DNA of 64,000 nt from Naegleria gruberi (GCA_000004985.1 GG738873.1), one strand, 5' to 3'. Numbered from the stretch's first letter, positions 5,978-46,354 are shown. Numbers and translations: made by a program. The notes: generated by a model from the sequence alone, not told the origin.

Positions 5978-8900
5978 TCATCTTCTCCTTCTTCTTAATT
6001 GGTCAAAAACTGAATTATTCAAAATATCCTGTGCTTGAGGTCTGATGGCACTGTCCTTTTCCAACATTGATAAAGTCAAGTCAATGATATATTGAGAATA
6101 TTGACCAGGCTCTTCCATTTTCTTCTTTAATAATTGTGAAACTTCCTTTTGATCCTTAGTGACATAGAGTTGACTAATTGATGTAAAAGTGTCCTTAGTT
6201 ATTATTTGATAAATAGTTACACCTAAACTGTAAATATCAGTGTTATAGAAATACTTGCCACCATATCCCAATTCTTTAAAAAACAATTTAAAATTAATGT
6301 CAGTTATCTCTTAATTACTTACCAGGTGACATGAATAGAGGAGTGCCAGCATATGAATTATTGGTAGAACCTTGATTTGCTTTGGCCAATCCAAAATCTG
6401 CAATAACTATTTCAATATTATCCTTATCTAAACTCTTTACAAAAATATTGGATGGTTTGATATCTCTGTGGATGAGTTTCATTGAGCTGTGAATATAATC
6501 AAGAGCGCTACACATTTGGAAAATGATTTGCAATAATATCTGTTCTGAACATGTAGAATCATCTTTGGTCAATTGAACCAAATCTCCCAATTCATAAAAG
6601 TCCATATCAATACACAACAATTGATCCTTACTAATAAAAAAGTCATTAACCTTAAGAATATTTGAATGGTGAATATTCATCAATTGAGTTCCTTCCTTCA
6701 TAAAATTATTCAACTCCTCTGTTGATGTGTATTTGATTACTTTGATTGCCTTCATGGTGTTTGTTTTGGAATCAAAAGCTTTGAATACTGAACCAAAGGC
6801 ACCTTGACCAATTTTAACCAAGTCCATATATCTTGAGAGTGGATTGAAGGATTGACTGCTACCTCCAGTAGATGAGATACTAGTGAGAGGAGTCAAAAAC
6901 ATACTGGCATCTGATGGGAAATCACTTGATTGACCAAGCTCAATATTTTGAATAGTTTGAAGTTCGTACGCTTTTTGAGATTTTAATTTCCAAACACAAA
7001 CTGAAAATACCACTACAATAATAGCTATGATAATTATTGCAATCAACACAACTGGAATTGTAACACCAAGGATGATACCAAGAGTTTGATCATCAATGGA
7101 TCTGGGAATTGAGTTAGAAACATTAGGTGCATAATAATAAGCAAGTTCTTGAACTGTGAATAGAGATAAGTGATTAGTGACACATTCCAAATTGAAATAG
7201 AGTTTACCTTCCTCTCTTTTGACAATTGTCATTGATTGAGTCAAAATACCAGAATTAGACCAAGTTTGTTTCACTGAATCATAGTAACTGCATGAAATGT
7301 TAGTATCTGTCTTGTCATTTGTAAACAAATTATTGAACTTGATTGAAATTGGTTTTGTAAGGCCACTGACAGGTACTTGAGCTCCACTTTCTTGACTATA
7401 AATGGATAATTCAAAAATTGGTCTATTTTCAAGAATGTTATTTAGTGTGGTATCCTTCTTGATCAATGAAGAGCTGTAGAATAATTTGACATTGTTTGGA
7501 ATACTTAATTGAGAAGTAAAATCGGATGGGAAACTGGCCGAAACTTGAATAGTATCTTCAATCATTATAGAAATTTCCTTTCCATTCAATTGAGTTTCCA
7601 AATCCAGACTTTCAAGTGAATAAGTCCCCAATGTATTATTCGTAGTCAACCCACTCAACAATAAATATTTAACTTGATATCCTACAATGAGTGATTGTTT
7701 CTCTAATTTTGAGGAAAATCTCTTAATCAAAATAGATTGTAAATTTGATAGCTCAGTATAGTGAGTTTCGTCCAATAGAGTTAATCTTAATGCAGAAGTA
7801 TAGTACTGCTTGGATTTGTCCATTCCTGAATAAGTCCAATCAAGCCACTTTACAAGATTATCAGTCATGGAATTGATGGAATTTTCATCTTGTAAAGTGA
7901 GATCGAGAATTGAGAAAATATCACAAATTATTGGAAGGACCATTTGAATAAGTTTTTCATCGACTTTGGATGTCAAACTCTGTACATTATTTAGGAGTGA
8001 TAGCATTTCATTCAAATTGGAGTTTAGAGTTTGAATTTGAGAATTGGAAGTTTCGGTAAACAATCTTCCAGTGAAATTTTCAAAATTAGTTTCGTTTAAA
8101 AGGAGAATTGACATGAGGGAATTAATGGAATTGACAGTTTCAATCTTCAATGGTTCTACTCTTTTTAAAGTATAAAATTGATCATTTACATAATTCAGTT
8201 TAGACGAAATTGAGTTTGTAATCGAATTTGGAGCTTTCATTGTAATTGTTCTTGTAAGCGTTCCAATAGATCCATATCTATTGACAAGTTTTACAACGAG
8301 ATTTAAATCTGAACCATCTCTACTGAGTGGAAGTCTGGTTACAAGGTTTTTCTTTAGAGTGTTGGAAAGAATTGATATTCTTTCTCCTTGTTGAGAATGA
8401 ATTTCCATTACATAATTCGAAACTGGTTCTGAAGGTAAATTGAGACAAGAAATGGTCATGAAGCTTTCGAATGCATAATTAACAGCTTCGTTTCTTAAAT
8501 TGTAATAGGAACATGAAAATCTTGGAGTATTGTCAATTCTTGTGGAAAGTGAAATATTCGATTGACCAAACTCATTCCAAGTTGACAACTCAAATGAATA
8601 AAATTCACCATCAATCAAATATTCATTTCCAATATTCAACTCTGATGTAACAGAATTACCACCAACATTTCTAATGGTTTCTCTATTTCTCAAGAATTCG
8701 TCCACATTCTCACCCACTGCAACATTCAATCTTCCTTCCACCAATTTCCAACTTGTTGTAACACTAGAAGTAGAAGAAATAAGAGTCTTTAAAACCAATG
8801 GACGATGACTAGCATGAATAGGAGGTCTATAAGGGCTACTAAGTTTTGGAGCTTGAATGGATGAATCAGTCAACTTGATAAAACCAATGAAATTGTAAGG

Positions 8901-11900
8901 AATTGAAACGAACGAGTTGGTATAGTAAACTATTAAATTGATAGAGTACATTCCTTCAGATAAATTCAAAGATGCTGGATTAAAAGTCAACGATTGTTGA
9001 GTATTTTGACTTGTACATAAATTTGAAGAAATGGTCAACTTGGTCAAAGGATCAACTTGGAAACATGAATAAGAATAAGTGAAATAATCCTTAATAGTAA
9101 ATGTCGTAATGAATGGATCATCATTTTCAAATGTTATAGTAATGGCTCCATTTCTAATAGAATGTGTTCTATTGACTTGTGTCAAGACATGATCCAATCT
9201 GTCAAATGTTTTGTAATTGAAATAGTATGGAAGTGATAAACTTTCATATGTTTTCAAGTGTAATCCAACTACTTGTGCATTAGAATTGTATTCACTATCA
9301 ATTAGTTCATTATTATAAATGTTGACTAATCTAAACATTTGCTTTTGAAAAACTTCAGCATTTAAAAGACTGAAAAATCCAGAAAAAGTATACGAAATGG
9401 AACTATTCAATGAATTCAAGCTAGATTCTACAATACAATTATGTCCAACACATGAAAATGGAGCATCCTTAACATTATCTCCAAACCAAGTGAAAGAAGG
9501 TGGTAAACTCTTGAGATTTGGTTGAACTCTTGTAATATCTCTTGAACTAGTTGCATAATTTAACAAGTTGACTGAATCAAGTTTCAAAGTGAGTACTTTC
9601 AGATAAGAGGCATCCAATGGAATGGTATTTAACAAGGAAATTGGAATGTTGATAATTGACTTGTTGTTATATTGTAAAAGATGGGATGAAATAGTTTGAG
9701 GACAATTTTCACATGTCCACACACGTTGAACTCGTTTGAAGGAATGGTAATAGTCATCTGTGTTGGATCTAACAATCAAATCTTGACTTGGTGGGAGAGT
9801 GGTGAGTAAATCATTGATTGAGGAAACAAAACTTCTTCCTTTCATAATGTTTAAAGATTCAGTTGAGTTGACCATCAATGAAATGTTATATCTGCTATCA
9901 GAATCAAGTAAAATTATTGATCCATGTACAATTGAGTGATCATATCCGAGTAAAATCTTGAAATAAGAACTAGTCCACAAGCATTGAACAAAATCCTTCT
10001 CACCAAATCTTGACTGTTCGTCCAAATTCATAATTTGATCACATGAGAAAATACTACCTGCTTGTTTTGAAATATTGAGAATGTTACTGAATGGAGAATA
10101 GATTAAAGCATTAGGAACATCTAGAAGGACATGATGATGTTGACATTTGTTTCCAGCAAATCCTTCATTACATAAACAATTATCAATTCCAATACAGCTA
10201 CCTCTCGATGAGCAAACATTTGAATTATTGGAATAGAGACCAAAACAATTGCTGTGTTGACATTCCTCGCCTCCATATCCCGTGTTACAATTACATTGAT
10301 TTGGAGCTTGACATTTACCTCTTCCATAACATACAGAGCTAGAATTGGATAGAATTCCAAAACATGAAGTCAAGGAACAATCCTTCTCTTTCCAGCCCTG
10401 ATTACATGTGCAGTTATCATAGGAGCTACATTGACCATTACCTGAACAAATGTATGAAGTATTAGACGAAAGTACATTGTAACATTTTAAAAATTCACAT
10501 CTACTACCACCCCATTCTTTTGGACATTTACAATCACCAGGTCCATCACATGTTCCGTTGTTTTGACAAACACTAACTCCAACAGATTGACCAGCACAAG
10601 TAAAATCATCACAAAAAGCACCAAAATAACCTATTGAACATGTACAGTTATTGTAAAAGTTACAGACACCGTGTCCAGAACATACACCTGGAGATGTTTT
10701 CACAATTCCATTACAATTATATAATTCGCACTCATTGCCATAGTATCCAAATGGACAGGAACAATTATTGTAAGCTGTACATTGACCTCTTCCAGAACAA
10801 ACTGAAGAGTTGGAAACTGCCATACCAAAACATGTGAAATTCATGCATGCACTTCCAAAATATCCCTCCACACATGAACAATTGTTTGGTTTAATGCAAC
10901 TTCCATGAGAGGAACAAACAGATGGGTTGGTATTTCTAATTCCAAAACAATCAAACTGTTCACAATTAGTGCCATTGTAAAGAGCTGTGCAGTTACAATA
11001 GTTTGGAGATTGACATGTTCCTCCACCTGAGCAAACATTTGTGGCCTGGTAATTGACTCCATAACAATCAAATTCTTCACAATTAGCTCCATAATAATTT
11101 GTATTGTAACATGTACATTCCAAGCTTGTACTGTTAAAGTATTTCTGGCTACTTCCACAAGATTGGAAAGACATGAGTCGAATAACATTATTTCCAGTAT
11201 CTGCAATGTAGATTTCACCAGAATTTCCTAATGCTAATCCTTCAGGATCACTGAATTGAGTATTGAGAGCAGCCATGAAATCTGGAGAGCTTCCTTTAGA
11301 TCCTGTTCCTGCAAGAGTTGAAATCTTACCATTAGTAACCTTTCTAATTCTCTGATTTTCCTTATCAATGAAAATCAAGTCACCTGTCGAGGTCACTTCT
11401 ATGGCGCCAGGCTTGTTTAACGAAGCTGACAAGGCACTTCCTCCATCTCCTGAAAAACCAGCAATACCATTACCTGCCACTGTTGAAATAATTCCACTTT
11501 GTAAATCAATTTTACGAATTACATGATTGATATTCTCAGTAAAATACAGAGCTCCAGAATATAATGCTATTCCATCAGGACCATTTAATTTGGCATTGAC
11601 TGCCAAATTTCCATCTCCTGAATATCCTGCACTCCCTGTTCCAGCAATAATATAAACATCCAAACCATCAATTTTAAGAATCATATTGTGTAAATAATCT
11701 GTCAAGTAAATAATGACTTTGTTGGGGTCATTAATCATGACGAAATGATTACTAGTGAAACTAGCTAGGTTATAGGTTGTTGGTGATGAAATTGGACCTC
11801 CTGTACAAGAACCTGCAATAAGAGAAACTGTGTATCCAGAATCCACTCTCTTCACAGCACAATTATTCTCCAGAAAGAATATTTTAGAATCGACCTGTCG

Positions 11901-13298
11901 TTGTAAGCCATAGTTTGGAGTGGTAATAACAGGACCAGTGGTACTAGTTGCACTGGATGAAGTTGTTTGACCAATGATACCTGCAAGATTGGTAATTATT
12001 TTGGAGGAGAGATCAATACTTCTCACTGCATAACTATTGGAATCAGCAAGTGTCAACACTCCATTCAAATAATAAACACTTGTTGGTTTTGAAAGGAAGG
12101 CAGAAAGAGCAGGTATTCCACTACCAAATTGTTGACTACTTGTACCTGCTATAGTTGAAATGGTGGATGCTTGTCCATCAGACACTGTTGCCTTTCTTAT
12201 TCTATTATTTCCCAGGTCAGCAATGTAAATATTTCCATCGCCATACACAACATTTGATGGATTTGAAATGCAATTTGTGGCAGCCGACCCATCATTAAAA
12301 CCTGGTTGTAAATTAACACCCACAAACTCAGTAATGAGATAGGGACTTTGAATAATGTTTTTTCTCCTGATTGTGTGACCAAGTGAATTGCAAATATACA
12401 TGTATCCACTTGCAATAGTCAACCCTTGAGGTCTTATTAAATCGCTATTACCAACGACTTCAGATACAGTATTGGAAGACAGTTTACAAACTCGATCATT
12501 ATTAGTATCAGAAAAATAGAGATTGTAATCATCACTTGAGAAGAATACTCCATACGGTGAAGCCAATTTCAAATTTAATGGTGGTTGAGTCATGTCACTT
12601 GATCCACTCATACCAGCAATACCAACTACTCTAATCACCATTGGAGTGCTATCCAATTGAGTTATTTTACGAATTATATGATTACCAGTATCTGCAAAAT
12701 AAATCTCTGTATTTGCTGGATTAATTGTAATACCACTTGGACTACTCAACTTGGTTAGAAGAGCAATTCCATCCCCAGAAACATCTGCTACTCCAGTTCC
12801 AGCAATTGTTGTAATTGTACCATTCACATAAATTTTCCTAATACGGTGATTTCCAGTATCAGTAAATACAATGTCACCATTATTCATCAAAATTATGCCT
12901 CTAGGTTGATTAATTGCAGCATTGACAGCTGGACCACCATCTCCTGAGAAACTATTTGCCACGCCATTGCCAGCAATTGTTGTGATCTTTCCAGTTGAGT
13001 CAATCTTTCTAATTCTATTGTTTGATGTATCGCAAATGTACATTGGATAAATTGTGTTAGGTGTAATTGCAATACCAGATGGTCCTTTTAATGAAGAGGC
13101 AGTTGCTGGTAGATTATCTCCAACAACATTGCCGCCACCTGCCAAAGTTGTCATGTTAAAAATTGGCACCGAACAATGACTCTCAACACATGTCAAAACA
13201 AACACAACTGCTAGCAATAGAATGAAGGGAACTACAACCAGATTGTGTACGGACACATGCCTGTCCATGCGTGTGTGAGAGCGATGTGAAAGAGGCAT
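5978..13298 (-). CDS. Receptor-like Ser/Thr protein kinase: signal/anchor, ~14 NHL repeats, ~12 tenascin-type EGF-like Cys repeats, large extracellular region, one TM helix, C-terminal kinase domain. Two exons with a 49-nt intron at ~6273-6321
   Basis: 6984-nt uninterrupted ORF. NHL repeats follow the pattern (SGDGG.A..A.LN.P.GI…D.GNHRIRKI). EGF-like repeats follow CxCxxGYxGxxC. TM segment GIILGVTIPVVLIAIIIIAIIVVVF. Kinase motifs GQGAFGSV…HRDIKPSN…DFGLA…GTPLFMSPE. The E of APE and subdomains X-XI (ELGYGGKYFYNTDIYSLG…) continue in the 5978-6272 exon after a GTAAGT…AAAG intron. Confidence 0.8.
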
Positions 13299-14123: not shown

Positions 14124-15867
14124 TTACAAAAGGAAAATGGAGGCAATGACTAAAAGGACAACAAAGAGACTAGAGAAAATTGGAGCAGAAAAACTCATTA
14201 CAGGAGTAGGAGAGAGGGAAGTATTATGTACATTATTAGGAATACTCATTACAGGATTAGGTGTAGGAGTACTCTTTTCAGGTGTAGGAGTGAGGGAAAT
14301 GAATTTGTTACCAAAATTGAGCTGCAGCAGACAAGTCAACAACCATTGGAGCATTCATAAATCCAGAGAATGTACTAGTAGCACAATCAATATCCAAATT
14401 GATCTTAATCTTCATGGTTAGACCTTTCCATTTTGACTAACTGGAACAACATCGAACGACAATTCATTTTCCAAGAGAATTCCCTTAATAACAGTTGATG
14501 GTCCAAGATTTTGGGTGGCATTAGAGAGGACAATAGTACCATTGGCAAACCATGATGACATATAACCAGTGTAAGAACCTTGAATTCTTTCCAAGAGAGC
14601 ACCAGGATAAGCTGGGGTAGCAACACTCTTACGGAGTTGTTCAATGATTGGAGTGAAAATAATTGGGGCATTCTTGAGAGCAATATTGTTAGCAACTGGA
14701 GAGTTCAATGAAGCCAAAGTGATCATTACAAAATCAAGTTCTGGAACAACCAATGGTTTGGCATTGTAGCCGTAAACAGAACCTCCCTTGGTCAAGTAGA
14801 ACAAGTTATTTTTGTCATCATACATGGTTTCAAAAGCACCCAAACCAATGGTGAATGTAGCATCGTTAGCCAAGAAGGTTGGCATGATGAATTGTCTCAT
14901 GGCATCCTTTGAAATTGGAACAGGGCACGCAGTGGCATTGTTAAGAGAGCTATAGGTGAAACAAGAGAAGAATTTTAACATATCATTAGCAGTACTGTAC
15001 ATGCCACTCTTGGGCCAACAACATGGTCAAATAATCTGGATCTCTACCAACAACCATCTTGGAAAGAATATCAGAAGAGTAATCAAATCCAGTGTTAGTC
15101 ATGCCCAACTTGTCGAAAATGTTAGTCTTACAGAATTCTCTGAATGATTTACCTGTAATCAATTCAAGAACTCCACCCAAAATGGTAAAGTCAACATTAC
15201 TGTAATAACGATCACTTATGGATGGAGCCATAAATTGCAACAAGTCAACTGTGGTCTTTCTGTATTCATCAAAAGTCATACTGCAATTATATGGATCACA
15301 AGGAGAAGTTCTAGACAAACCAGCACCGTGACTCATTAATTGTCTGAAAGTAATCTTGTTAGTTGCTGTCGTAAAGTACTTGTTAGTATATTGAAAGTCT
15401 TTAACATAGTTAGTGATTGGTTCATCAATACTCTTAATAAGACCCAATTCTTGAGCAATCAAAGCAGCCATACTGGTAAAAACTTTAGTGACAGAGGCAA
15501 CTCTAAAGATGGAATCGGCAGTTGGAGTTTCAGTTTCCTTACCCTTAGTACCAACTTGACCAACACCTTGGTTCATAACAACAGTATCTCTATATTTGGC
15601 AAGAATAATTCCGGATCCATTCTTTACACCATTGTCAACCAAAATAGATTTAACCATATTATTCTTGAGTTCTGTTAAAGCAGATTGAAGAGTTGAAACA
15701 TCAATTTCTGCAGATCTTGGAAGAATGTTACATTTAGGGTTTGCATCAGATGCCTTCAATACTCTGACTTGAGACTTGAGAGATCTAGCACTTGCCTTTG
15801 GATTGACATCAGAACTTATCTTAGTGTAAGCAACGAACCAATCAAGACCTGGCATCCAGAAGTACAA
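14124..15867 (-). CDS. Beta-lactamase/transpeptidase-fold serine hydrolase (copy 2, complete catalytic module with SxxK and YxN). It probably ends in a Thr/Pro-rich linker plus a hydrophobic GPI-signal-like tail exon
   Basis: Motifs ASVTKVFTS (SxxK), YSNVDFTILGG (YxN), TANDMLKFF, GLGAFETM…GGSVYGYNAKP. An apparent 1-nt frame change lies near 14990-15010. The downstream exon candidate 14124-14325 is in frame after a GTCTAA…CTGCAG intron (~14326-14421) and encodes …TPTPEKSTPTPNP…SFSAPIFSSLFVVLLVIASIFLL*. Confidence 0.55.
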
Positions 15868-17012
15868 GTTGCCACATTTGAGAATCTAAGAACTTCATTT
15901 CCGTAACCTCCCTTAAACAATGTCAAAGAATCGATATATGCAGCTTCTTGAATATCTCTAATAATGAAAGCATTATTTGGTTGGTAATCCAAATCAAAAT
16001 TAACATAATTTCCACCCAAATTAATGTTCATAATAGTTTGACCATCTTGATAATACAAAGTGGCATTGGTTCCATCAGCATTACACAAATAGGTACCTTG
16101 GTACTTGGCTTGATCTTGAGCTGGAGGTAAAACAAATGCTGGCATGACAGAAACATATTGACTCATAAGTGTTCCAACAGCCTTAGCATAAATTTGTTCA
16201 GCAATATATGTAGCAAAGACATCTCTATTGGAAGAAATTGAAATGATTGCAAACTTGTATTCTGGAACAAAGATCATGTGAGTAGAAAATCCGAGAACGC
16301 TTCCTCTCTTAGATCTCTTCCATACGTTATACTTGCTATCGTGACTCATTTCAAAGGCAAAACCAGTTGCATTTTGAGCGTCTGGAGAAATATATTGAGG
16401 AGTGAAAAATTCACGAACAGTTTGACGAGTAAGAATACTTTCATCATTCAAGATTGAGGAGGCATAATAGGTCAAATCTTGCAATGTAGAGTAAGCATCC
16501 ATGGAACCTTCACACCAACCAGACTTTAATTCAGAATCGAATGTGATAGTGGCATTGCCAGCATAGCTAGGAGCAACATGAGTGGAAACAGTGAGGAGAT
16601 CAGAGACGAGACCAGAGTTGGACATGGAGGCACTTTTCATTACATCCTTAAGATTAGAAGAGACGGATTGACCATTAATTTTAGCAAGAGCTTGACTCAA
16701 CCAACAATAACCAAAGTCAGAATAAACTGGTACAGAGTATGGTTCATGTACAACTGAAGAATGTCCAGGAAGACCAGAAGCAGCCATTGCCTTAACAACT
16801 TCATCATTAGAAAGATTACAATCAAATAGTTTGCAAGGAGCTTGTCTTCCGAGACCACTCATGTGTGTGGACAATTGTCTCAAAGTAACAGAGGAAATTG
16901 GAAACTTGGAGAATGTACTAGTGAGAGCATCATCGAGTTTCAACTTTCCAGCATCTCTCATTCTGAACATTTGAGTAGCAACCAACAATAACGAAAATTT
17001 CGTAAAAAGCAA
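15816..17012 (-). CDS. Beta-lactamase-fold hydrolase paralog (copy 1) lacking its N-terminal ~120 aa, including the catalytic Ser. Either a truncated pseudogene or the upstream half of a tandem-duplicated gene
   Basis: Aligns with copy 2 from the SxxK position onward (LFTKFSLLLVATQMFRMRDAGKLKLDD vs SVTKVFTSMAALIAQELGLIKSIDE), so Ser is replaced by Leu. It retains YSDFGY, GFSTHMIFVPE and a DUF3471-like C-terminus. There is no in-frame ATG until MFRMRDAGK. The upstream flank is occupied by the 744-aa ORF. Confidence 0.5.
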   Translation of the reverse strand: MLFTKFSLLLVATQMFRMRDAGKLKLDDALTSTFSKFPISSVTLRQLSTHMSGLGRQAPCKLFDCNLSNDEVVKAMAASGLPGHSSVVHEPYSVPVYSDFGYCWLSQALAKINGQSVSSNLKDVMKSASMSNSGLVSDLLTVSTHVAPSYAGNATITFDSELKSGWCEGSMDAYSTLQDLTYYASSILNDESILTRQTVREFFTPQYISPDAQNATGFAFEMSHDSKYNVWKRSKRGSVLGFSTHMIFVPEYKFAIISISSNRDVFATYIAEQIYAKAVGTLMSQYVSVMPAFVLPPAQDQAKYQGTYLCNADGTNATLYYQDGQTIMNINLGGNYVNFDLDYQPNNAFIIRDIQEAAYIDSLTLFKGGYGNEVLRFSNVATCTSGCQVLIGSLLTLR

Positions 17013-17036
17013 CCATGGAATTAAAATGCGATTTTT

Positions 17037-19271
17037 CTATTTTTTTTTATTTGCCAAAATTTCTTTCAATTTTTTGAATACTGATTCTCTCTCCTTTCCT
17101 TCATCTGTAAACGAAAAACCATACAACAACACATTTGAAGGTGGAATACGTGTATTTCTATTTTGAACTCCAAAATCCTCAAATTCTTTTGACTCATCAT
17201 TCCATTGGAGCACAGAGAGATGAATTCTCTCATCATAATACAATAAATATTTTCCAACCTCATAATAATCTTGGCTCATTTGAGTTTTAAATGCAACCAG
17301 TGTTTCCAATTGTAAATGTTTTAGAAATTGTTTTTTCTTATCAGGAACAAAGTAATCATGAGATGAAATTTGAATTCTACTTCTTCTAGTGGTTTCTTCA
17401 TTAATGGTGACAGAGTTATTCGAAATTGAATTTTCTGTCAACCAAAAATCCAAATTGGTTTCATTGGAAAATAAAGACTTTGTTTTTTCTATAAAATAAT
17501 CTTCATACCATTTCCAAGTTGCATCTGCAAGCATTGATTTGATTTTGTTTAATCCTTTTAATAAATCTAATTCGAAAGCTGGTGGTGTGATAATGTCAGG
17601 AACATTGTTAGGTACAACATTATTTCTAAATATTTCAATAACTCCATCCTTTCCATTCAATCCTACCCATTTAGAATTATCATAATTAAATTCACGAACT
17701 TGCAAAACAGGTTTGTCATTTTCCATTTTAATTTTAAATCCATGAAAATCAGAAATTCCTTTAAATGTATTGACATTATCTTTAAATAAGGATTTAAAAT
17801 CAAACATTCTTTCTAAAAATGATATTTCAGGAACATTTTTAGAATAAATTTCTTTCTTTTTTTCAATAAATTCAAGAGGACTATGACATGAATTATTTTG
17901 AAAATAAATTGAATGAATTGAAAAAAATTGATCTATATCAGTATGAGTATGTCCAACAATCATGGTGCCAATAATTACTTTTTTTACCCACCCCAAACTA
18001 ACTAATAAACCTGCGAATGCTACAGCGTACTTGTTTTTGAGTTCTTTTGAGCAATTGTCTGCTTGTAAATACAGAATTGATGGTAAATTTCCTTTTTCTT
18101 TTTTTAAATTATATAAATATTCATACAGAACTGTTAGTGCCAAATTGGCTCCACCTTCACAATTAGGAAGTTTTAATTTAATCTGATATTTTCTTCCATG
18201 TGAAATTAGTCCATAATTTGATATGTTTAATTTTTTAACAGCATTACTATTTTTAGTAGCATTGGCAATTACTGGATATGGTGTTGCTTGTGCACCATCA
18301 ATTATTATAGATAAATACTTGTTTGGATTAGCTATTGCTTTTTCTATTTTTTTTTTAAAAACAAATCTTTCTCCACAACATTCATTAATATGTTTGGCTC
18401 TTGCTTTTTTTGCTTTTTCTTGCTCAACTTCATTTGTTGATCTCTTTAAATTATTTAATCTAGCACACTCATCACATTTTCCTAATCTAGTATTTTTTGG
18501 TAATTTAATATTGGGAAATAAGTTTTTTGCTTGTCTTTTAAAAGTATCCAACCTATAGTAAGCACCTTCTTGTGATGAGACATATATTTCATATATTGGT
18601 TTCCAAGTATTGAAACCAGTAATGTGCATTTCATTTGCATTAGGTAATGGTTCAGCAAAGTTTTCTGCGAATACTGAAAACCAAGATTTAAAATTTGTGA
18701 GCTTTTCACTATCTTCCTTAATTGGTGAATGTTGTTCGTCAATTTTAGATAAATCAGTCTTTTTGGATTTTTTCAATTTATATGAAGAAATACCATAAAT
18801 ATTTTTGAACATTATTTCACAAACAGGTTTTCCGTTAATTGTATAGTTGTTTGAGTGTTGTGTAATATTTCCAACAAATTTCAACTTGTCTTTTTCCTTC
18901 AATCCTGCATAGAATGTTCTTTTTTCAGTTATTTCCGAAATTGTAAAATTAGTATTGCAATGCTTAACGCAACAATTTTTCAAGATACATGAGGAAATCG
19001 CATTATCATTCAATAATTGTTTTGATTTTTTTCCTAATTTTTCCTCTGGTGATCTTAATCTTCGTTTTGTTGATTTGTATGTACGTTTTGGTTTTGTATT
19101 AATATTGGCAATCTCTGATGAATTAGTATTATTATTAATATTTTTATCACGATTTAATTTTAAATAAAGATTAATTGGTGATTCATCCTCTAATTCCGAG
19201 TTATTAAAATCTTGATAATTATTATCATCATTGTCCTGTTGAAAGTATGAAAGTAATTCACTTGCAGACAT
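17037..19271 (-). CDS. Intronless 744-aa lysine-rich ORF with DDE/DDD transposase-like motifs; candidate DNA-transposon ORF or domesticated transposase
   Basis: ATG at 19271, TAG at 17037, and no introns although neighbouring genes have them. Candidate catalytic triad SIIIDGAQ …(~80 aa)… LYLQADNCSKE …(~40 aa)… GHTHTDIDQFF with Tc1/mariner-like spacing. A Cys/His cluster (CILKNCCVKHCN, GKCDECARL) is present. The composition is unlike the housekeeping genes around it. Confidence 0.35.
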   Translation of the reverse strand: MSASELLSYFQQDNDDNNYQDFNNSELEDESPINLYLKLNRDKNINNNTNSSEIANINTKPKRTYKSTKRRLRSPEEKLGKKSKQLLNDNAISSCILKNCCVKHCNTNFTISEITEKRTFYAGLKEKDKLKFVGNITQHSNNYTINGKPVCEIMFKNIYGISSYKLKKSKKTDLSKIDEQHSPIKEDSEKLTNFKSWFSVFAENFAEPLPNANEMHITGFNTWKPIYEIYVSSQEGAYYRLDTFKRQAKNLFPNIKLPKNTRLGKCDECARLNNLKRSTNEVEQEKAKKARAKHINECCGERFVFKKKIEKAIANPNKYLSIIIDGAQATPYPVIANATKNSNAVKKLNISNYGLISHGRKYQIKLKLPNCEGGANLALTVLYEYLYNLKKEKGNLPSILYLQADNCSKELKNKYAVAFAGLLVSLGWVKKVIIGTMIVGHTHTDIDQFFSIHSIYFQNNSCHSPLEFIEKKKEIYSKNVPEISFLERMFDFKSLFKDNVNTFKGISDFHGFKIKMENDKPVLQVREFNYDNSKWVGLNGKDGVIEIFRNNVVPNNVPDIITPPAFELDLLKGLNKIKSMLADATWKWYEDYFIEKTKSLFSNETNLDFWLTENSISNNSVTINEETTRRSRIQISSHDYFVPDKKKQFLKHLQLETLVAFKTQMSQDYYEVGKYLLYYDERIHLSVLQWNDESKEFEDFGVQNRNTRIPPSNVLLYGFSFTDEGKERESVFKKLKEILANKKK

Positions 19272-19510
19272 TTTTTTTGGAAATATTTTTGACTAATTAA
19301 GAAAATTAAAATACAAGAAAATCACAATAATTGATTTATTCTCTTAAAGTATATAATTTAAAACCAAAAACAATTGGACAATTATTTGGTAAATATTTTC
19401 AGCCGAAAAGCAATGCAATTTTTGTGAAAAATGATTCATCATTAAATTCCGAATACAATTTAATTTTCAAAGATGTTTATTTAATAAGGCATTAAAATTG
19501 ACTAAAAAAA

Positions 19511-21501
19511 ATGTCTTCAAGTGAATCATCACAATCAACAAGTAACGAAATACAAGAAAATGTTGTTGGTGATAATATTTCATCATCAAAATCCAACAAT
19601 AATTTACCATCGTCCACTAGTACTTCTGAATCAACAATTGATGTTCATGAATCGACACCCGATTCATCTAAAATTCCGGAGCAAACAACTAACAAGCAAA
19701 ATTCAGAAGATGAGAACTCCTTTGAAACCTATTACAAATTAGGGGACCCTGTAAATATTAAGGGAAAACCAACTGATCTCTTTAAAAGCATTACTATCAA
19801 GAATACTGGAAACCAACTAATCAGTGAATCTGTTGTACGATTTAAAAAATCCAACATTTCATCATTATTTTACATTTTAGGAATTAAAAAATTAAAAAAG
19901 TCATTTAAGGTGTGTGGAATTTTAGAAACGGATTTCAGTAAAACCACTGATCTTGATCACGAGTGGTTGGAATTGGTTGACGAGAATGATAAGAGTGTAA
20001 AAACATTTAAAACAAGAATTATTAAATTAAATGAACAACCAACCAAAAAAAATTCCAAAAGCAATTCTGTTGATACCTCCTCCAAGAATGAAGGTAGAAA
20101 ATATGAAACAAGATCATCTAAAAAGAAAAAAACAGAAGAAGAAGAACATGTACTTGAACAAGAACAACAATCTAATTCCGAATCTGAAGAAGAAGAACCA
20201 CCTCCAAGAGTAGCCAGAAAAAAATCAACTAGAAAATCAAGTAAAAAATCTGAATCAGAAGAAGAAGAAAAAGAGGTTTCTCCAAGAGTAGCCAAAAAAA
20301 AACAACAACAAGAAAATCAACAGGTAAAGTAGGAAGGCCAAAAAAGTCCGAGACTGTTTCAGTGGATGATGATGACATTTTATTTTCAGATATTTTGTCC
20401 AATAATTCTAAACCTAATTTAAATTCAAATACTATTAGTAACAGCTCAGTCAAATCAGTCACCAAACCAACCAAATTAAAAAATAATTCCAATAATTATG
20501 ATGATAATTCAAATAATAATTTAAATAATACTTTAATCAAATATGATGAAAATTTAAATACAAATCCAAATACTAATAATAGAAATATTTTCAGTAACAA
20601 CAAATTTAATAATAATAATAACAATAATTTAAATTATAATAATACTAATAATATCAAAAATTATGGTAATAATAATTATAATAATTATGATAATGTTATT
20701 GACTTAAATAACTCACATAATTCAAATAATTTTATTTTTAATTCAAATACTAATACGGAACAAAATTGTTACAACAGAAACAATTTCAATTCAATTAATA
20801 ATAATTTTAACAATAATTACAATCCCAATAATTATGAAAATGTATCAATTTACAATTCAAACAATAGAAATAATTTTTTGAATTATAATAATAATTTTGA
20901 CAATCATCATTTAAGCAATGATAATTCTAATAATTATTCAAATAATTTCAGTGCAAATAAATACAATAATATGAATAGTCATAATAATTATAATAATTGG
21001 AATACCAATGACAATATTTCAAATAATTATTTAAATAATAATAGAAATAATTTATGGAACAATTTCAATTCTAATAACAACTATCATCCAAATGCTAATA
21101 ACAATTTTACTAATTATCCAAATAATAATACTAACAATTTTAATAATTATCCAAATAATAACAATTTTAATAATTATGCAAATAATAATAATTTAAATAA
21201 TTATGCAAATAATAATTATAATAATTGTAACAACAATACAAACAATGGTCCTATTAACCTCCATAACAACACGATGATGAGTGTGTTGCATCATGTCAAT
21301 AATATGATCGACAATGAAATGGATTTCGAATTAAAAATGATGATTAACAAATTAATGGATAAATTAAACCAAACAGAGGAAAAAAACACTTTATTGAAAT
21401 TAATTGGTTCAACCAGGAATTTACATTATAGAACCCCAGGTAATTCCGAGAAAAACTCAAAATTGAAAGAATTACTATTCAAACTTCTTAATGATGAATA
21501 A
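19511..21501 (+). CDS. AT-hook-containing, Ser/acidic-rich and Asn-rich low-complexity nuclear protein (~660 aa). It is encoded by two ORFs joined through an apparent 1-nt frameshift in an A9 run
   Basis: ORF1 ends …SPRVAKKKQQQ*. The +2 frame is open from 20254 and reads …KKTTTRKSTGKVGRPKKSETVSVDDDD…, an AT-hook (GRPKK) that parallels the earlier repeat PRVARKKSTRKSSKKSE in ORF1. The homopolymer aaaaaaaaa at ~20294-20302 is the likely indel site. ORF2 continues as N-rich repeats to 21501. Confidence 0.55.
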
Positions 21502-21805
21502 TTAATTTTTTTAATAAAAAATTTCGTAAAAATGTGATTTTTTGCCTGACGATTTTTACCAAATTTTTGTTCAATTTGGTCAAATCACCAATACGAACCT
21601 TAGTGGTTGCATCACCATTTCCAGAGAACAAACTTGATATGTTTCCACCTGGAAACATAATACTACTAGCAGCAAAACCCGATGACACTGTAAAGGCAGC
21701 ATCTTGGATAGCTTGAGCATCGCTTGGAGAAAACTTTGCTTCTAAGAAGGTAGAGCAGAAAAGCAAGCAGCTTAGAAAAATTACTACAATTGTTTGTTTG
21801 AGCAT
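21488..21805 (-). CDS. Small secreted protein (signal peptide + ~80 aa), hypothetical
   Basis: ATG at 21805. N-terminal signal MLKQTIVVIFLSCLLFCSTFLEA. The 3' end overlaps the convergent neighbour, so the true C-terminus is uncertain. Confidence 0.25.
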   Translation of the reverse strand: MLKQTIVVIFLSCLLFCSTFLEAKFSPSDAQAIQDAAFTVSSGFAASSIMFPGGNISSLFSGNGDATTKVRIGDLTKLNKNLVKIVRQKITFLRNFLLKKLIIHH

Positions 21806-45855: not shown

Positions 45856-46354
45856 ATTAATTCCCTAATACTAATACCCAAACCAATTCCCTCCCAAAAT
45901 TTTGGTTCTCCCTCTTTAACAAATAGCTACTCTAGTAAACAATAATTATTTAATTCATATTCCAATTCTTTAAATCAATATTTCTGAACTACCTTATTCG
46001 AATCTAGATTAGGGATGTTGCTCTAACAAAAATTTGAATTGGTAATTTACAATAGTGGTGAACTTGTCTCTAAAAGGTTCTCAATAATTATTCAATTTCT
46101 TACCCCAGACCTCAATTTCTCTGCATAACCACAACAATAAAAAAATTAGCGAGAATTGAAGGTAGGTGTCAGCATAGAATGTTCCCATATTCATAACCAT
46201 CCTACTGTAACTGAATTATATTATCATCACAAATGTTATTAAAATAATACCGTCACCAACTTCATCATACTATTTGGTGTTTATCTGTCAATACAATGAA
46301 CGGAATATTTTAATGACCATTTTGGAATTATTGGATGAATTGATCACCATATAG

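What the first reader, a model, noticed from the sequence alone, without database searches (positions are those of the whole stretch)
14124..19271. Tandem β-lactamase-family hydrolase modules; the first copy is N-terminally truncated exactly where an intronless transposase-like ORF sits
Copy 2 (15867→14418, plus a likely TP-rich/GPI-signal exon 14325→14124) is a complete serine-hydrolase module. Copy 1 (17012→15816) aligns to it only from the SxxK position onward, has Leu in place of the catalytic Ser, and has no start codon or signal peptide. Immediately upstream, in the same reading frame and separated only by its TAG stop, lies a 744-aa intronless ORF with a DDE/DDD-like motif arrangement (…DGAQ…~80 aa…QADNC…~40 aa…HTDIDQ). 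The simplest reading is a transposon-like insertion that removed the 5' ~360 nt of hydrolase copy 1. Alternatively copy 1 and copy 2 are one gene, joined by a candidate 54-nt GTCTTG…AAAG intron near 15813-15866, whose first module is a non-catalytic domain.
Basis: partly seen in the sequence, partly recalled or inferred. Interest (0 to 1): 0.65.

Follow-up and report, generated by a model that had tools for sequence, protein, structure and literature searches.

The report
Sola1-like transposon splitting a hydrolase pseudogene
A 4.6-kb cut-and-paste DNA transposon of the Sola1 type sits inside a two-module beta-lactamase-like gene of the amoeba Naegleria gruberi, and that gene copy is a decayed pseudogene; this is an ordinary transposon insertion, resolved to the base pair.

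Summary
The window is Naegleria gruberi. The two beta-lactamase-family modules are one gene, not two. An intact 1018-aa N. gruberi paralog (P0161) has a signal peptide, module 1, module 2 and a hydrophobic tail in a single protein.

A 4,582-bp element (16990-21571) lies between the two gene pieces. It has 21-nt imperfect terminal inverted repeats (TIRs) and a 4-bp target-site duplication (TSD), ATTG. Removing it in silico, with one TSD copy, restores a gap-free, stop-free reading frame.

The 744-aa ORF is the element's transposase. It matches Pfam DUF7869, has an RNase H-like fold and three invariant Asp residues, and its profile matches Sola1 reference cores. A Naegleria lovaniensis relative occurs as two identical copies with perfect 24-bp TIRs that begin with the same motif and with 4-bp TSDs.

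Module 2 is not intact. Relative to the paralog, four deletions break the frame. The proposed 54-nt intron is coding sequence carrying a 7-nt deletion. The "Leu for Ser" residue is translated TIR; the true motif is DLTK, in the paralog as well.

Verdict: the transposon reading is essentially right, several details are wrong, and the biology is ordinary.

The parts
21572..21805 (-). Displaced 5' piece of the hydrolase gene. It carries the ATG, the signal peptide (MLKQTIVVIFLSCLLFCSTFLEA) and residues 1-78, ending ...RIGDLTKL.
   Evidence: tblastn of P0161 residues 1-78 gives 88% identity here. The sequence was read.
21572..21575 (-). Target-site duplication, upstream copy. It reads ATTG on the minus strand: the last base of Lys77 plus the Leu78 codon.
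   Evidence: The Leu78 codon is present on both sides of the insertion.
16990..21571 (-). Complete Sola1-like DNA transposon, 4,582 bp. Its GC content is 25.7%, against 38-39% in the flanking hydrolase sequence.
   Evidence: In-silico removal of the element plus one TSD copy restores an ungapped, stop-free ORF that matches P0161 at 428 of 448 residues.
21551..21571 (-). Terminal inverted repeat at the upstream end (upstream in the transposase's orientation): AACAAAAATTTGGTAAAAATC.
   Evidence: 18 of 21 bases match the other end. None of 200,000 random position pairs reach this level. The pattern search found only the element's own ends plus one internal copy.
16990..17010 (+). Terminal inverted repeat at the downstream end: AACGAAAATTTCGTAAAAAGC. 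Its translation on the minus strand gives the spurious 'LFTK'.
16986..16989 (-). Target-site duplication, downstream copy (ATTG on the minus strand).
17037..19271 (-). Transposase gene, 744 aa including the stop codon. It has an N-terminal Cys cluster, an RNase H-like catalytic core with D325, D405 and D447, and a C-terminal beta-barrel domain.
19511..20332 (+). Second ORF of the element, divergent from the transposase gene, 273 aa. It has a globular N-terminal part and a K/E/S-rich tail. Its function is unknown.
   Evidence: No Pfam hit. No homolog among 5.8 billion proteins. A 344-aa ORF sits in the same position in the N. lovaniensis element.
20254..21501 (+). Third open frame. ORF379 was listed from 20362, but the frame is open from 20254. 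It contains a GRPKK AT-hook-like motif, a long Asn-rich tract and a helical C-terminus. It may be the continuation of ORF273 after a frameshift.
21514..21534 (+). Subterminal copy of the TIR motif (ATAAAAAATTTCGTAAAAATG), 16 nt inside the upstream TIR and inverted relative to it.
   Evidence: 3 mismatches.
15876..16988 (-). Remainder of hydrolase module 1 plus its C-terminal beta domain (P0161 residues 78-448). It is 97% identical to P0161.
   Evidence: Pfam PF00144, E = 7.6e-14.
15007..15879 (-). Linker and first half of module 2 (P0161 residues 450-740; contains ASVTK and YSN), in a different frame. The frame break at about 15876 corresponds to an inferred 7-nt deletion within ...SN[DKD]GNLYFW.
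14421..15014 (-). Second half of module 2 (P0161 residues 741 to about 941), again in another frame. The break at about 15007 corresponds to an inferred 8-nt deletion (QE[PAG]GMYSTAND).
14311..14436 (-). C-terminal beta-domain segment (…TMKIKINLDIDCATSTFSGFMNAPMVVDLS) in yet another frame. The break at about 14420 corresponds to an inferred 1-nt deletion.
14124..14354 (-). Tail of the gene (LNFGNKF…, a TP-rich 29-aa insertion, a hydrophobic C-terminus and the stop). It follows a fourth break at about 14325, an inferred 23-nt deletion.

Best explanation
The region is one N. gruberi gene for a secreted, probably membrane-anchored, two-module beta-lactamase-family protein. That gene copy has been inactivated.

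A 4,582-bp cut-and-paste DNA transposon (16990-21571) inserted between codons 77/78 and 79, one codon after the DLTK motif of module 1. This separated the signal peptide and the first 78 residues (21572-21805) from the rest of the gene (16988-14124).

The element has 21-nt imperfect TIRs and is flanked by a 4-bp TSD (ATTG). It encodes a 744-aa DDD transposase with an RNase H-like core. I infer the usual mechanism: the transposase binds the TIRs, excises the element, and integrates it at a 4-bp staggered cut whose repair produces the TSD.

By sequence profile, TSD length, TIR type and element size, it belongs to the Sola superfamily and is closest to Sola1. Pfam DUF7869 is therefore, in effect, the catalytic core of this transposase lineage.

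The hydrolase copy then decayed, or was already decaying. It carries four frame-breaking deletions relative to the intact paralog P0161. The public gene model P0162 for this locus is an artefact that bridges the breaks with invented introns.

Shown: the insertion boundaries, TIRs, TSD, fold, family membership and frame breaks. Inferred: the transposition chemistry, the order of events, and whether this copy can still move.
For: - Identity of the locus: P0162 ('predicted protein [Naegleria gruberi]') matches the window at 100% in three blocks. P0161 (1018 aa, N. gruberi, on another scaffold) covers 98% of the conceptual two-module translation at 91% identity.
- Split gene: P0161 residues 1-78 map to 21805-21572 and residues 78-448 map to 16988-15876. 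The Leu78 codon is present on both sides.
- Ends of the insertion, read on the minus strand...ACCAA[ATTG]|AACAAAAATTTGGTAAAAATC ... GCTTTTTACGAAATTTTCGTT|[ATTG]TTGGTT. The TIRs match at 18 of 21 positions, and 0 of 200,000 random position pairs reach that.
- Empty-site reconstruction: deleting 16990-21571 plus one ATTG gives a stop-free ORF that aligns ungapped with P0161 at 428 of 448 residues. GC content is 25.7% inside the element and 38-39% outside.
- Transposase: Pfam DUF7869, E = 3.9e-43. The exhaustive search found 3115 homologs at E < 1e-3. They have a patchy distribution (Naegleria, Thecamoeba, amphioxus, sea urchin, a nemertean), and some species hold several near-identical copies: at least four cluster members in Branchiostoma belcheri and two loci in N. 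lovaniensis.
- Sola1 link: the Sola1-1_AP and aphid Sola1 reference cores (supplement of PMC3985635) hit only DUF7869 in Pfam, at E = 1.1e-5 and 1.9e-5. hhalign of the family profile against Sola1 gives probability 94.3% and E = 9.5e-8; against Sola2 it gives 0.3%.
- Published Sola definition: DDD transposase, 4-bp TSDs, 2-9 kb, TIRs of 11-1124 bp (PMC10741241; PMC3627910).
- Mobile relative: the N. lovaniensis homolog (35% identical) lies in two 100%-identical 3,782-bp copies. These have perfect 24-bp TIRs (AACATAAATTTAAAAATTTCCGAC), 4-bp TSDs (CTAT and TTGA), and the same layout of two divergent genes. The terminal 11-mer AACRWAAATTT is shared by all six element ends.
Against: - No second copy of this element in N. 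gruberi could be shown. The genome is not searchable with these tools. Neither ORF744 nor ORF273 is present in the protein collections.
- A 4-bp direct repeat alone has about a 1 in 256 chance of arising by accident.
- The Sola1 assignment rests on 125-aa reference fragments. Their Pfam scores (25.5 and 24.8 bits) fall just under the 26-bit gathering threshold.
- The transposase ORF is intact over 2.2 kb, while the 3.1-kb host gene has four frameshifts. This does not fit a simple story in which the insertion came first and both sequences then decayed neutrally.
Confidence: 0.92

Rival explanations
1. First reader's main version. The insertion is essentially the 744-aa ORF alone, and it deleted the first ~360 nt of hydrolase copy 1. 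Copy 2 is left as a separate, intact gene.
For: The ORF's stop codon lies 47 nt before hydrolase homology begins, and the frame stays open across the junction. No signal peptide lies directly upstream of module 1.
Against: The missing 234 nt are present at 21572-21805. The TIRs and TSD lie at 16990 and 21571, not around the ORF. The intact paralog shows a single two-module gene. Module 2 is broken by frameshifts.
Confidence: 0.02
2. First reader's alternative. Modules 1 and 2 form one functional gene joined by a 53/54-nt GTCTTG...AAAG intron, and the first module is non-catalytic.
For: The paralog P0161 is indeed one gene with two modules, and its module 1 has Asp instead of the nucleophilic Ser (GDLTK). 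Introns of about 49 nt exist in this genome.
Against: The protein P0161 contains the residues encoded inside the proposed intron (…GNLYFWMPGLDWFVAYTKISSDVNPK…). The frame change there is explained by a roughly 7-nt deletion. Three more frame breaks and the transposon insertion make the gene non-functional. The proposed donor GTCTTG is unlike the GTAAGT donor of the confirmed intron.
Confidence: 0.03
3. ORF744 is a domesticated, host-retained transposase-derived gene rather than part of a mobile element. This copy may be immobile but kept by selection.
For: The 744-codon ORF is intact with all family-invariant residues, while the surrounding host gene accumulated four frameshifts. The TIRs have diverged at 3 of 21 positions. 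The second ORF may be frameshifted. No other N. gruberi copy was seen in the protein databases.
Against: It still sits between recognisable TIRs with a TSD inside a disrupted gene. That arrangement is the signature of a transposon insertion, not of a conserved host locus. The closest relatives are multi-copy mobile elements. No syntenic orthologs were found. The absence of gene models may simply reflect repeat masking during annotation.
Confidence: 0.1
4. The frame breaks in the hydrolase are assembly or sequencing errors, and the gene would be intact apart from the transposon.
For: One of the four breaks is a single-base difference (about 14420).
Against: The other three are inferred deletions of 7, 8 and 23 nt, and they do not lie in homopolymer runs. 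Neighbouring genes have very long intact ORFs, for example 2327 aa. The JGI annotators also had to invent introns at this locus (P0162).
Confidence: 0.05

Closest known systems
Sola superfamily of eukaryotic DNA transposons, Sola1 group (Bao, Jurka, Kapitonov & Jurka 2009; reference element Sola1-1_AP)
   Same: Both have a DDD transposase with an RNase H-like core and 4-bp TSDs of no fixed sequence. Both have short TIRs and a size within the 2-9 kb range. The core motifs are shared: xxDxxxxxTP, SDNCxxQN[KR]N (compare ADNCSKELKNK here) and GH[TS]. The profile match to Sola1 cores has 94% probability, E = 9.5e-8. The Sola1 reference cores hit only Pfam DUF7869.
   Different: Sequence identity to the Sola1 references is only about 20% over 93 aligned columns. 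The host is a heterolobosean amoeba. The element carries a second, divergently transcribed orphan gene. The transposase has a C-terminal beta-barrel domain resembling BAH/Tudor readers. I could not check whether Repbase already holds a Naegleria Sola1 entry.
The N. lovaniensis 3.8-kb element encoding XP_044541740 / XP_044551790 (annotated 'DUF7869 domain-containing protein')
   Same: It has the same terminal motif (AACATAAATTT against AACAAAAATTT and AACGAAAATTT), 4-bp TSDs, and a transposase of similar length that is 35% identical. It has the same layout, with a divergent second ORF and only about 50 nt between the transposase stop codon and the element end.
   Different: The N. lovaniensis copies are identical to each other and have perfect 24-bp TIRs, which points to recent activity. 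The N. gruberi copy has 3 mismatches in 21 nt, is 0.8 kb longer (an Asn-rich ORF), and its second ORF shows no detectable similarity.
Sola2 elements of dictyostelids (DFa and PPa families; PMC3627910)
   Same: They occur in amoebae, have 4-bp AT-rich TSDs and short imperfect TIRs of 12-21 bp.
   Different: The transposase profile does not match the Sola2 cores (probability 0.3%). There is no Fanzor/TnpB passenger gene.
piggyBac and Kolobok (the other superfamilies with 4-bp TSDs)
   Same: 4-bp TSD and a DDD/E RNase H-like transposase.
   Different: Their TSD is specifically TTAA. The TSDs here are ATTG, CTAT and TTGA. There is no Pfam DDE_Tnp_1_7 hit and no THAP domain.
Class C beta-lactamase / esterase EstB-type serine hydrolases (Pfam PF00144), for the host gene
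   Same: Both modules match PF00144. Module 2 keeps S-V-T-K and Y-S-N.
   Different: The gene has a tandem two-module architecture. Module 1 has D-L-T-K and Y-S-D, so it is predicted to be non-catalytic even in the intact paralog. This copy is a pseudogene.

Membership tests
Sola superfamily (Sola1 group) | Transposase with a DDD catalytic triad on an RNase H-like fold | tested here: met
   [not shown]
Sola superfamily (Sola1 group) | 4-bp target-site duplications | tested here: met
   ATTG flanks the window element. CTAT and TTGA flank the two N. lovaniensis copies. The published criterion is in PMC10741241.
Sola superfamily (Sola1 group) | Terminal inverted repeats at the element ends | tested here: met
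   21 nt, 18 of 21 matching; 0 of 200,000 random pairs reach this. The N. lovaniensis relative has a perfect 24-nt TIR with the same first 11 nt.
Sola superfamily (Sola1 group) | Significant sequence similarity of the transposase to Sola transposases | tested here: met
   hhalign of the family profile against two Sola1 cores gives probability 94.3%, E = 9.5e-8. Both Sola1 cores hit only PF25273, at E about 1e-5, but 0.5-1.2 bits below Pfam's gathering score, and they are truncated fragments. Sola2 and Sola3 cores gave no Pfam match, and the Sola2 cores gave no profile match. A full-length comparison against Repbase was not possible.
Sola superfamily (Sola1 group) | Multiple copies or evidence of mobility in the host genome | not testable with these tools
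   The N. gruberi assembly cannot be searched here, and only one copy lies in the 64-kb window. Mobility is shown for the N. lovaniensis relative, which has two identical copies at different loci.
piggyBac / Kolobok | TTAA-specific 4-bp TSD | tested here: not met
   The TSDs are ATTG, CTAT and TTGA. The Kolobok and piggyBac criterion is in PMC9587614.
Serine beta-lactamase-like hydrolase (PF00144), functional enzyme | Pfam domain match | tested here: met
   Module 1 E = 7.6e-14; module 2 E = 2.5e-28.
Serine beta-lactamase-like hydrolase (PF00144), functional enzyme | S-x-x-K nucleophile motif | tested here: not met
   Module 1 has G-D-L-T-K at 21590-21576 in the window and in P0161. It aligns with A-S-V-T-K of module 2. 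Module 2 keeps the Ser.
Serine beta-lactamase-like hydrolase (PF00144), functional enzyme | Uninterrupted reading frame | tested here: not met
   A 4.58-kb insertion plus four frame breaks relative to P0161.
   P0161 contains the peptide encoded there. The donor GTCTTG differs from the GTAAGT donor of the verified 49-nt intron at about 6274-6322.

The most novel reading that the evidence does not exclude
The Naegleria elements define a distinct heterolobosean branch of Sola1 with three possible special features. The transposase carries a C-terminal chromatin-reader-like (BAH/Tudor-type) barrel. It is paired with a fast-evolving orphan second gene. And the N. gruberi copy is being kept intact by selection, either because the family is still active or because the gene is becoming domesticated, while its host gene decays around it. 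As a by-product, Pfam DUF7869, with thousands of 'uncharacterised' proteins in animals and protists, would be re-annotated as the Sola1 transposase core.
Probability: 0.3. Interest if true: 0.4.

Novelty: new member of a known kind. Interest (0 to 1): 0.25.

Why it matters
The main value is in annotation.
- It corrects a public N. gruberi gene model (P0162), which is really a transposon-split, frame-shifted pseudogene.
- It defines a complete autonomous element in Naegleria, with exact ends.
- It ties a large Pfam domain of unknown function (DUF7869, more than 3000 homologs) to a named transposon superfamily, with TIR and TSD evidence. This should stop these proteins from being read as host genes, such as the 'ATP binding' label in amphioxus.

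It does not reveal a new mechanism.

Tried and rejected
- A TIR search confined to 16500-20000 around ORF744 found no flanking repeats. The element is twice that size; the true ends appeared only after the paralog was mapped.
- Exact-protein look-ups for ORF744, another window ORF and P0161 found nothing, so the paralog's DNA and the genomic copy number could not be obtained.
- The word-indexed protein search with ORF744 gave only 2 hits. The exhaustive search was needed.
- A literature search for 'DUF7869' returned 0 papers. The original Sola paper (Bao et al. 2009) and the Yuan & Wessler 2011 paper are not held.
- A profile search against PDB sequences found nothing significant.
- KDZ/Zisupton was considered because of the N-terminal Cys cluster and dropped. 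There is no Pfam KDZ or CxC hit, and Zisupton makes 8-bp TSDs (PMC12730594).
- At first I took the window for a dictyostelid genome because of its Asn-rich proteins. The N. gruberi hits corrected this.
- ORF273's globular part has no homologs and shows no similarity to the N. lovaniensis second ORF.
- By hand, I found no GT-AG intron longer than 29 nt that joins ORF273 to ORF379 in frame (from the sequence).
- The metagenome contig L001, with a 34% identical transposase, has no recognisable TIRs or terminal motif.
- The extra terminal-motif hit at 46025 is within chance expectation.


Full report
**What is at the coordinates.** On the minus strand the flagged region contains an intact 744-aa ORF (17037-19271). 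Downstream of it are open segments in alternating frames:
- 17036-15819
- 15885-14989
- 15026-14421
- 14436-14311
- 14354-14127

The second and third of these segments match Pfam Beta-lactamase PF00144, and the 744-aa ORF matches DUF7869 at E = 3.9e-43. The two hydrolase modules are only about 28% identical, so this is an old internal duplication and not a recent tandem copy.

**Source organism and the intact comparator.** I searched with the conceptual two-module translation. Two Naegleria gruberi proteins came back.
- P0162 (628 aa) matches the window at 100% in three blocks. It is the public gene model of this very locus. It starts at an internal Met and jumps over the frame breaks.
- P0161 (1018 aa, on a different scaffold) covers 98% of the query at 91% identity. 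It is one continuous protein: signal peptide, module 1, a beta domain, a linker, module 2, a beta domain and a hydrophobic tail.

So the two modules belong to one gene.

**The "missing" 5' end.** tblastn of P0161 against the window places residues 1-78 at 21805-21572 (88% identity) and residues 78-448 at 16988-15876 (97%). The Leu78 codon occurs on both sides. The gene is therefore split by 4.58 kb of foreign DNA; nothing was deleted.

Read on the minus strand, the junctions are:
- ...GAT TTG ACC AA[A TTG]|AACAAAAATTTGGTAAAAATC...
- ...GCTTTTTACGAAATTTTCGTT|[ATTG] TTG GTT GCT...

The two ends of the insert are 21-nt inverted repeats matching at 18 of 21 positions. None of 200,000 random position pairs in the window reach that level. 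The ends are flanked by the direct repeat ATTG.

Removing 16990-21571 plus one ATTG restores a stop-free ORF. It aligns without gaps to P0161 at 428 of 448 residues across the junction (...RIGDLTKLLVATQMF...). GC content is 25.7% inside the element and 38-39% outside.

**The transposase.** The exhaustive protein search found 3115 homologs at E < 1e-3. The best is 35% identical. Homologs are scattered over Naegleria lovaniensis, Thecamoeba, amphioxus, sea urchin and a nemertean, and some species hold several near-identical copies.
- In a 51-sequence alignment the invariant residues are C266, C269, H294, R302, D325, P333, H358, D405, N406, G440, H441 and D447.
- The AlphaFold2 model has mean pLDDT 82.7. 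D325 lies at the end of a beta strand, D405 just after the fourth strand, and D447 at the start of the following helix. This is the RNase H-like arrangement.

**Which superfamily.** Pfam calls the domain unknown, and no paper mentions DUF7869. The supplement of Majorek et al. 2014 (PMC3985635) gives the RNase H cores of the Repbase references Sola1-1_AP, Sola2-1_HM and Sola3-1_HM.
- Both Sola1 cores hit only DUF7869 in Pfam, at E = 1.1e-5 and 1.9e-5. These scores are just under the gathering threshold, and the sequences are fragments. The Sola2 and Sola3 cores do not hit.
- The profile-profile comparison of the family with the Sola1 pair gives 94.3% probability and E = 9.5e-8. It aligns ADNCSKELKNK with SDNCGGQNRNR, and GHTH with GHTQ. 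The Sola2 pair gives 0.3%.
- Published descriptions define Sola by a DDD transposase, 4-bp TSDs, a size of 2-9 kb and TIRs of 11-1124 bp (PMC10741241). Amoebal Sola2 elements have 12-21-bp TIRs and AT-rich 4-bp TSDs (PMC3627910).

All of these features are met here. piggyBac and Kolobok, the other superfamilies that make 4-bp TSDs, require TTAA (PMC9587614), which is not what is seen.

**Independent proof of mobility in the family.** The N. lovaniensis homolog is encoded at two loci. The loci share a 100%-identical 3,782-bp segment. That segment has perfect 24-bp TIRs (AACATAAATTTAAAAATTTCCGAC) and different 4-bp TSDs, CTAT and TTGA. The first 11 nt (AACRWAAATTT) are shared with both ends of the window element.

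The layout is also the same. A second ORF diverges from the transposase gene, and the transposase stop codon lies only about 50 nt from the element end. This explains why the ORF appears to abut the hydrolase in the window.

**State of the hydrolase copy.** Relative to P0161, the frame changes at four points. The deletion sizes below are inferred from the codon-level alignment, not from DNA.
- About 15876: SN[DKD]GNLYFW, roughly 7 nt missing.
- About 15007: QE[PAG]GMYSTAND, roughly 8 nt missing.
- About 14420: GKV[H]TMKIK, 1 nt missing.
- About 14325: DLS[DATVTLSLPT]LNFG, roughly 23 nt missing.

It is therefore coding sequence. The only verified intron nearby is 49 nt long with a GTAAGT donor (about 6274-6322, in the kinase gene).

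The real motif, GDLTK, is in the displaced 5' piece. It has Asp in both the window and the intact paralog, and it aligns with ASVTK of module 2. Module 1 is therefore predicted to be non-catalytic by design.

**What remains open.**
- Copy number in N. gruberi could not be measured. Neither ORF744 nor ORF273 is in the protein collections. That is compatible with repeat masking before annotation but proves nothing.
- The transposase ORF is intact, while the 3.1 kb of host gene has four frameshifts and the TIRs differ at 3 of 21 positions. Either the insertion post-dates much of the decay, or the transposase is under selection.
- ORF273 and the Asn-rich ORF379 overlap in two open frames over 79 nt (20254-20332). 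They may be one gene broken by a frameshift. I found no plausible intron joining them.

**Verdict.** This is a textbook transposon insertion into a gene copy that is now a pseudogene. The element is a new or at least unpublicised member of a known superfamily. The most useful by-products are the corrected gene model and the link between DUF7869 and Sola1.

Noticed in passing
window 19256-19278 and 19504-19526 (weaker similarity extends to 19256-19300 and 19481-19526): A 23-nt inverted repeat matching at 22 of 23 positions (AAAAAAAATGTCT[G/T]CAAGTGAAT). It covers the start codons and first five codons of the two divergent element genes (MSASE... and MSSSE...), 225 nt apart. It looks like a duplicated 5' end around a bidirectional promoter. 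No clear counterpart exists in the N. lovaniensis element.
   Followed up: partly
window 21514-21534: A subterminal copy of the TIR motif with 3 mismatches, inverted relative to the adjacent terminal repeat 16 nt away. The two form a small hairpin-like pair at one end only. It may be an extra transposase-binding site.
   Followed up: no
window 20254-21501 (+): The frame of ORF379 is open 108 nt upstream of its listed start and overlaps the end of ORF273. The overlap region encodes KVGRPKKSE, an AT-hook-like motif. A tract of about 250 Asn-rich residues and a helical C-terminus follow. ORF273 and ORF379 may be one frameshifted gene.
   Followed up: partly
[not shown]
   Followed up: no
window 14418-16961 (public protein P0162): The database gene model for this locus (628 aa, 'predicted protein [Naegleria gruberi]') starts at an internal Met of module 1 and skips the frame breaks with artificial introns. 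It should be re-annotated as a pseudogene.
   Followed up: yes
window 14180-14270: The pseudogene's tail carries a 29-aa Thr/Pro-rich insertion (PTPEKSTPTPNPVMSIPNNVHNTSLSPTP) that is absent from the intact paralog.
   Followed up: no
L001 312-2513 (ENA metagenome contig k141_310422): A 733-aa DUF7869 protein, 34% identical over 93% of ORF744, lies next to PPR-DYW deaminase and EF-hand genes. The contig probably comes from another amoeboid protist. No TIRs or terminal motif were found around it.
   Followed up: partly
window 6274-13298 (-): A giant receptor-like gene encoding NHL/teneurin-type repeats, many EGF repeats, a transmembrane segment and a protein kinase domain. The kinase domain is interrupted by a 49-nt GTAAGT...AAAG intron at about 6274-6322. 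I used this as the reference for real introns in this genome.
   Followed up: partly
homologs P0013, P0014 (Branchiostoma belcheri KAI8489490 and others): Several amphioxus members of this transposase family are annotated 'ATP binding' in GenBank. This label is probably a mis-annotation of Sola1-type transposases.
   Followed up: no
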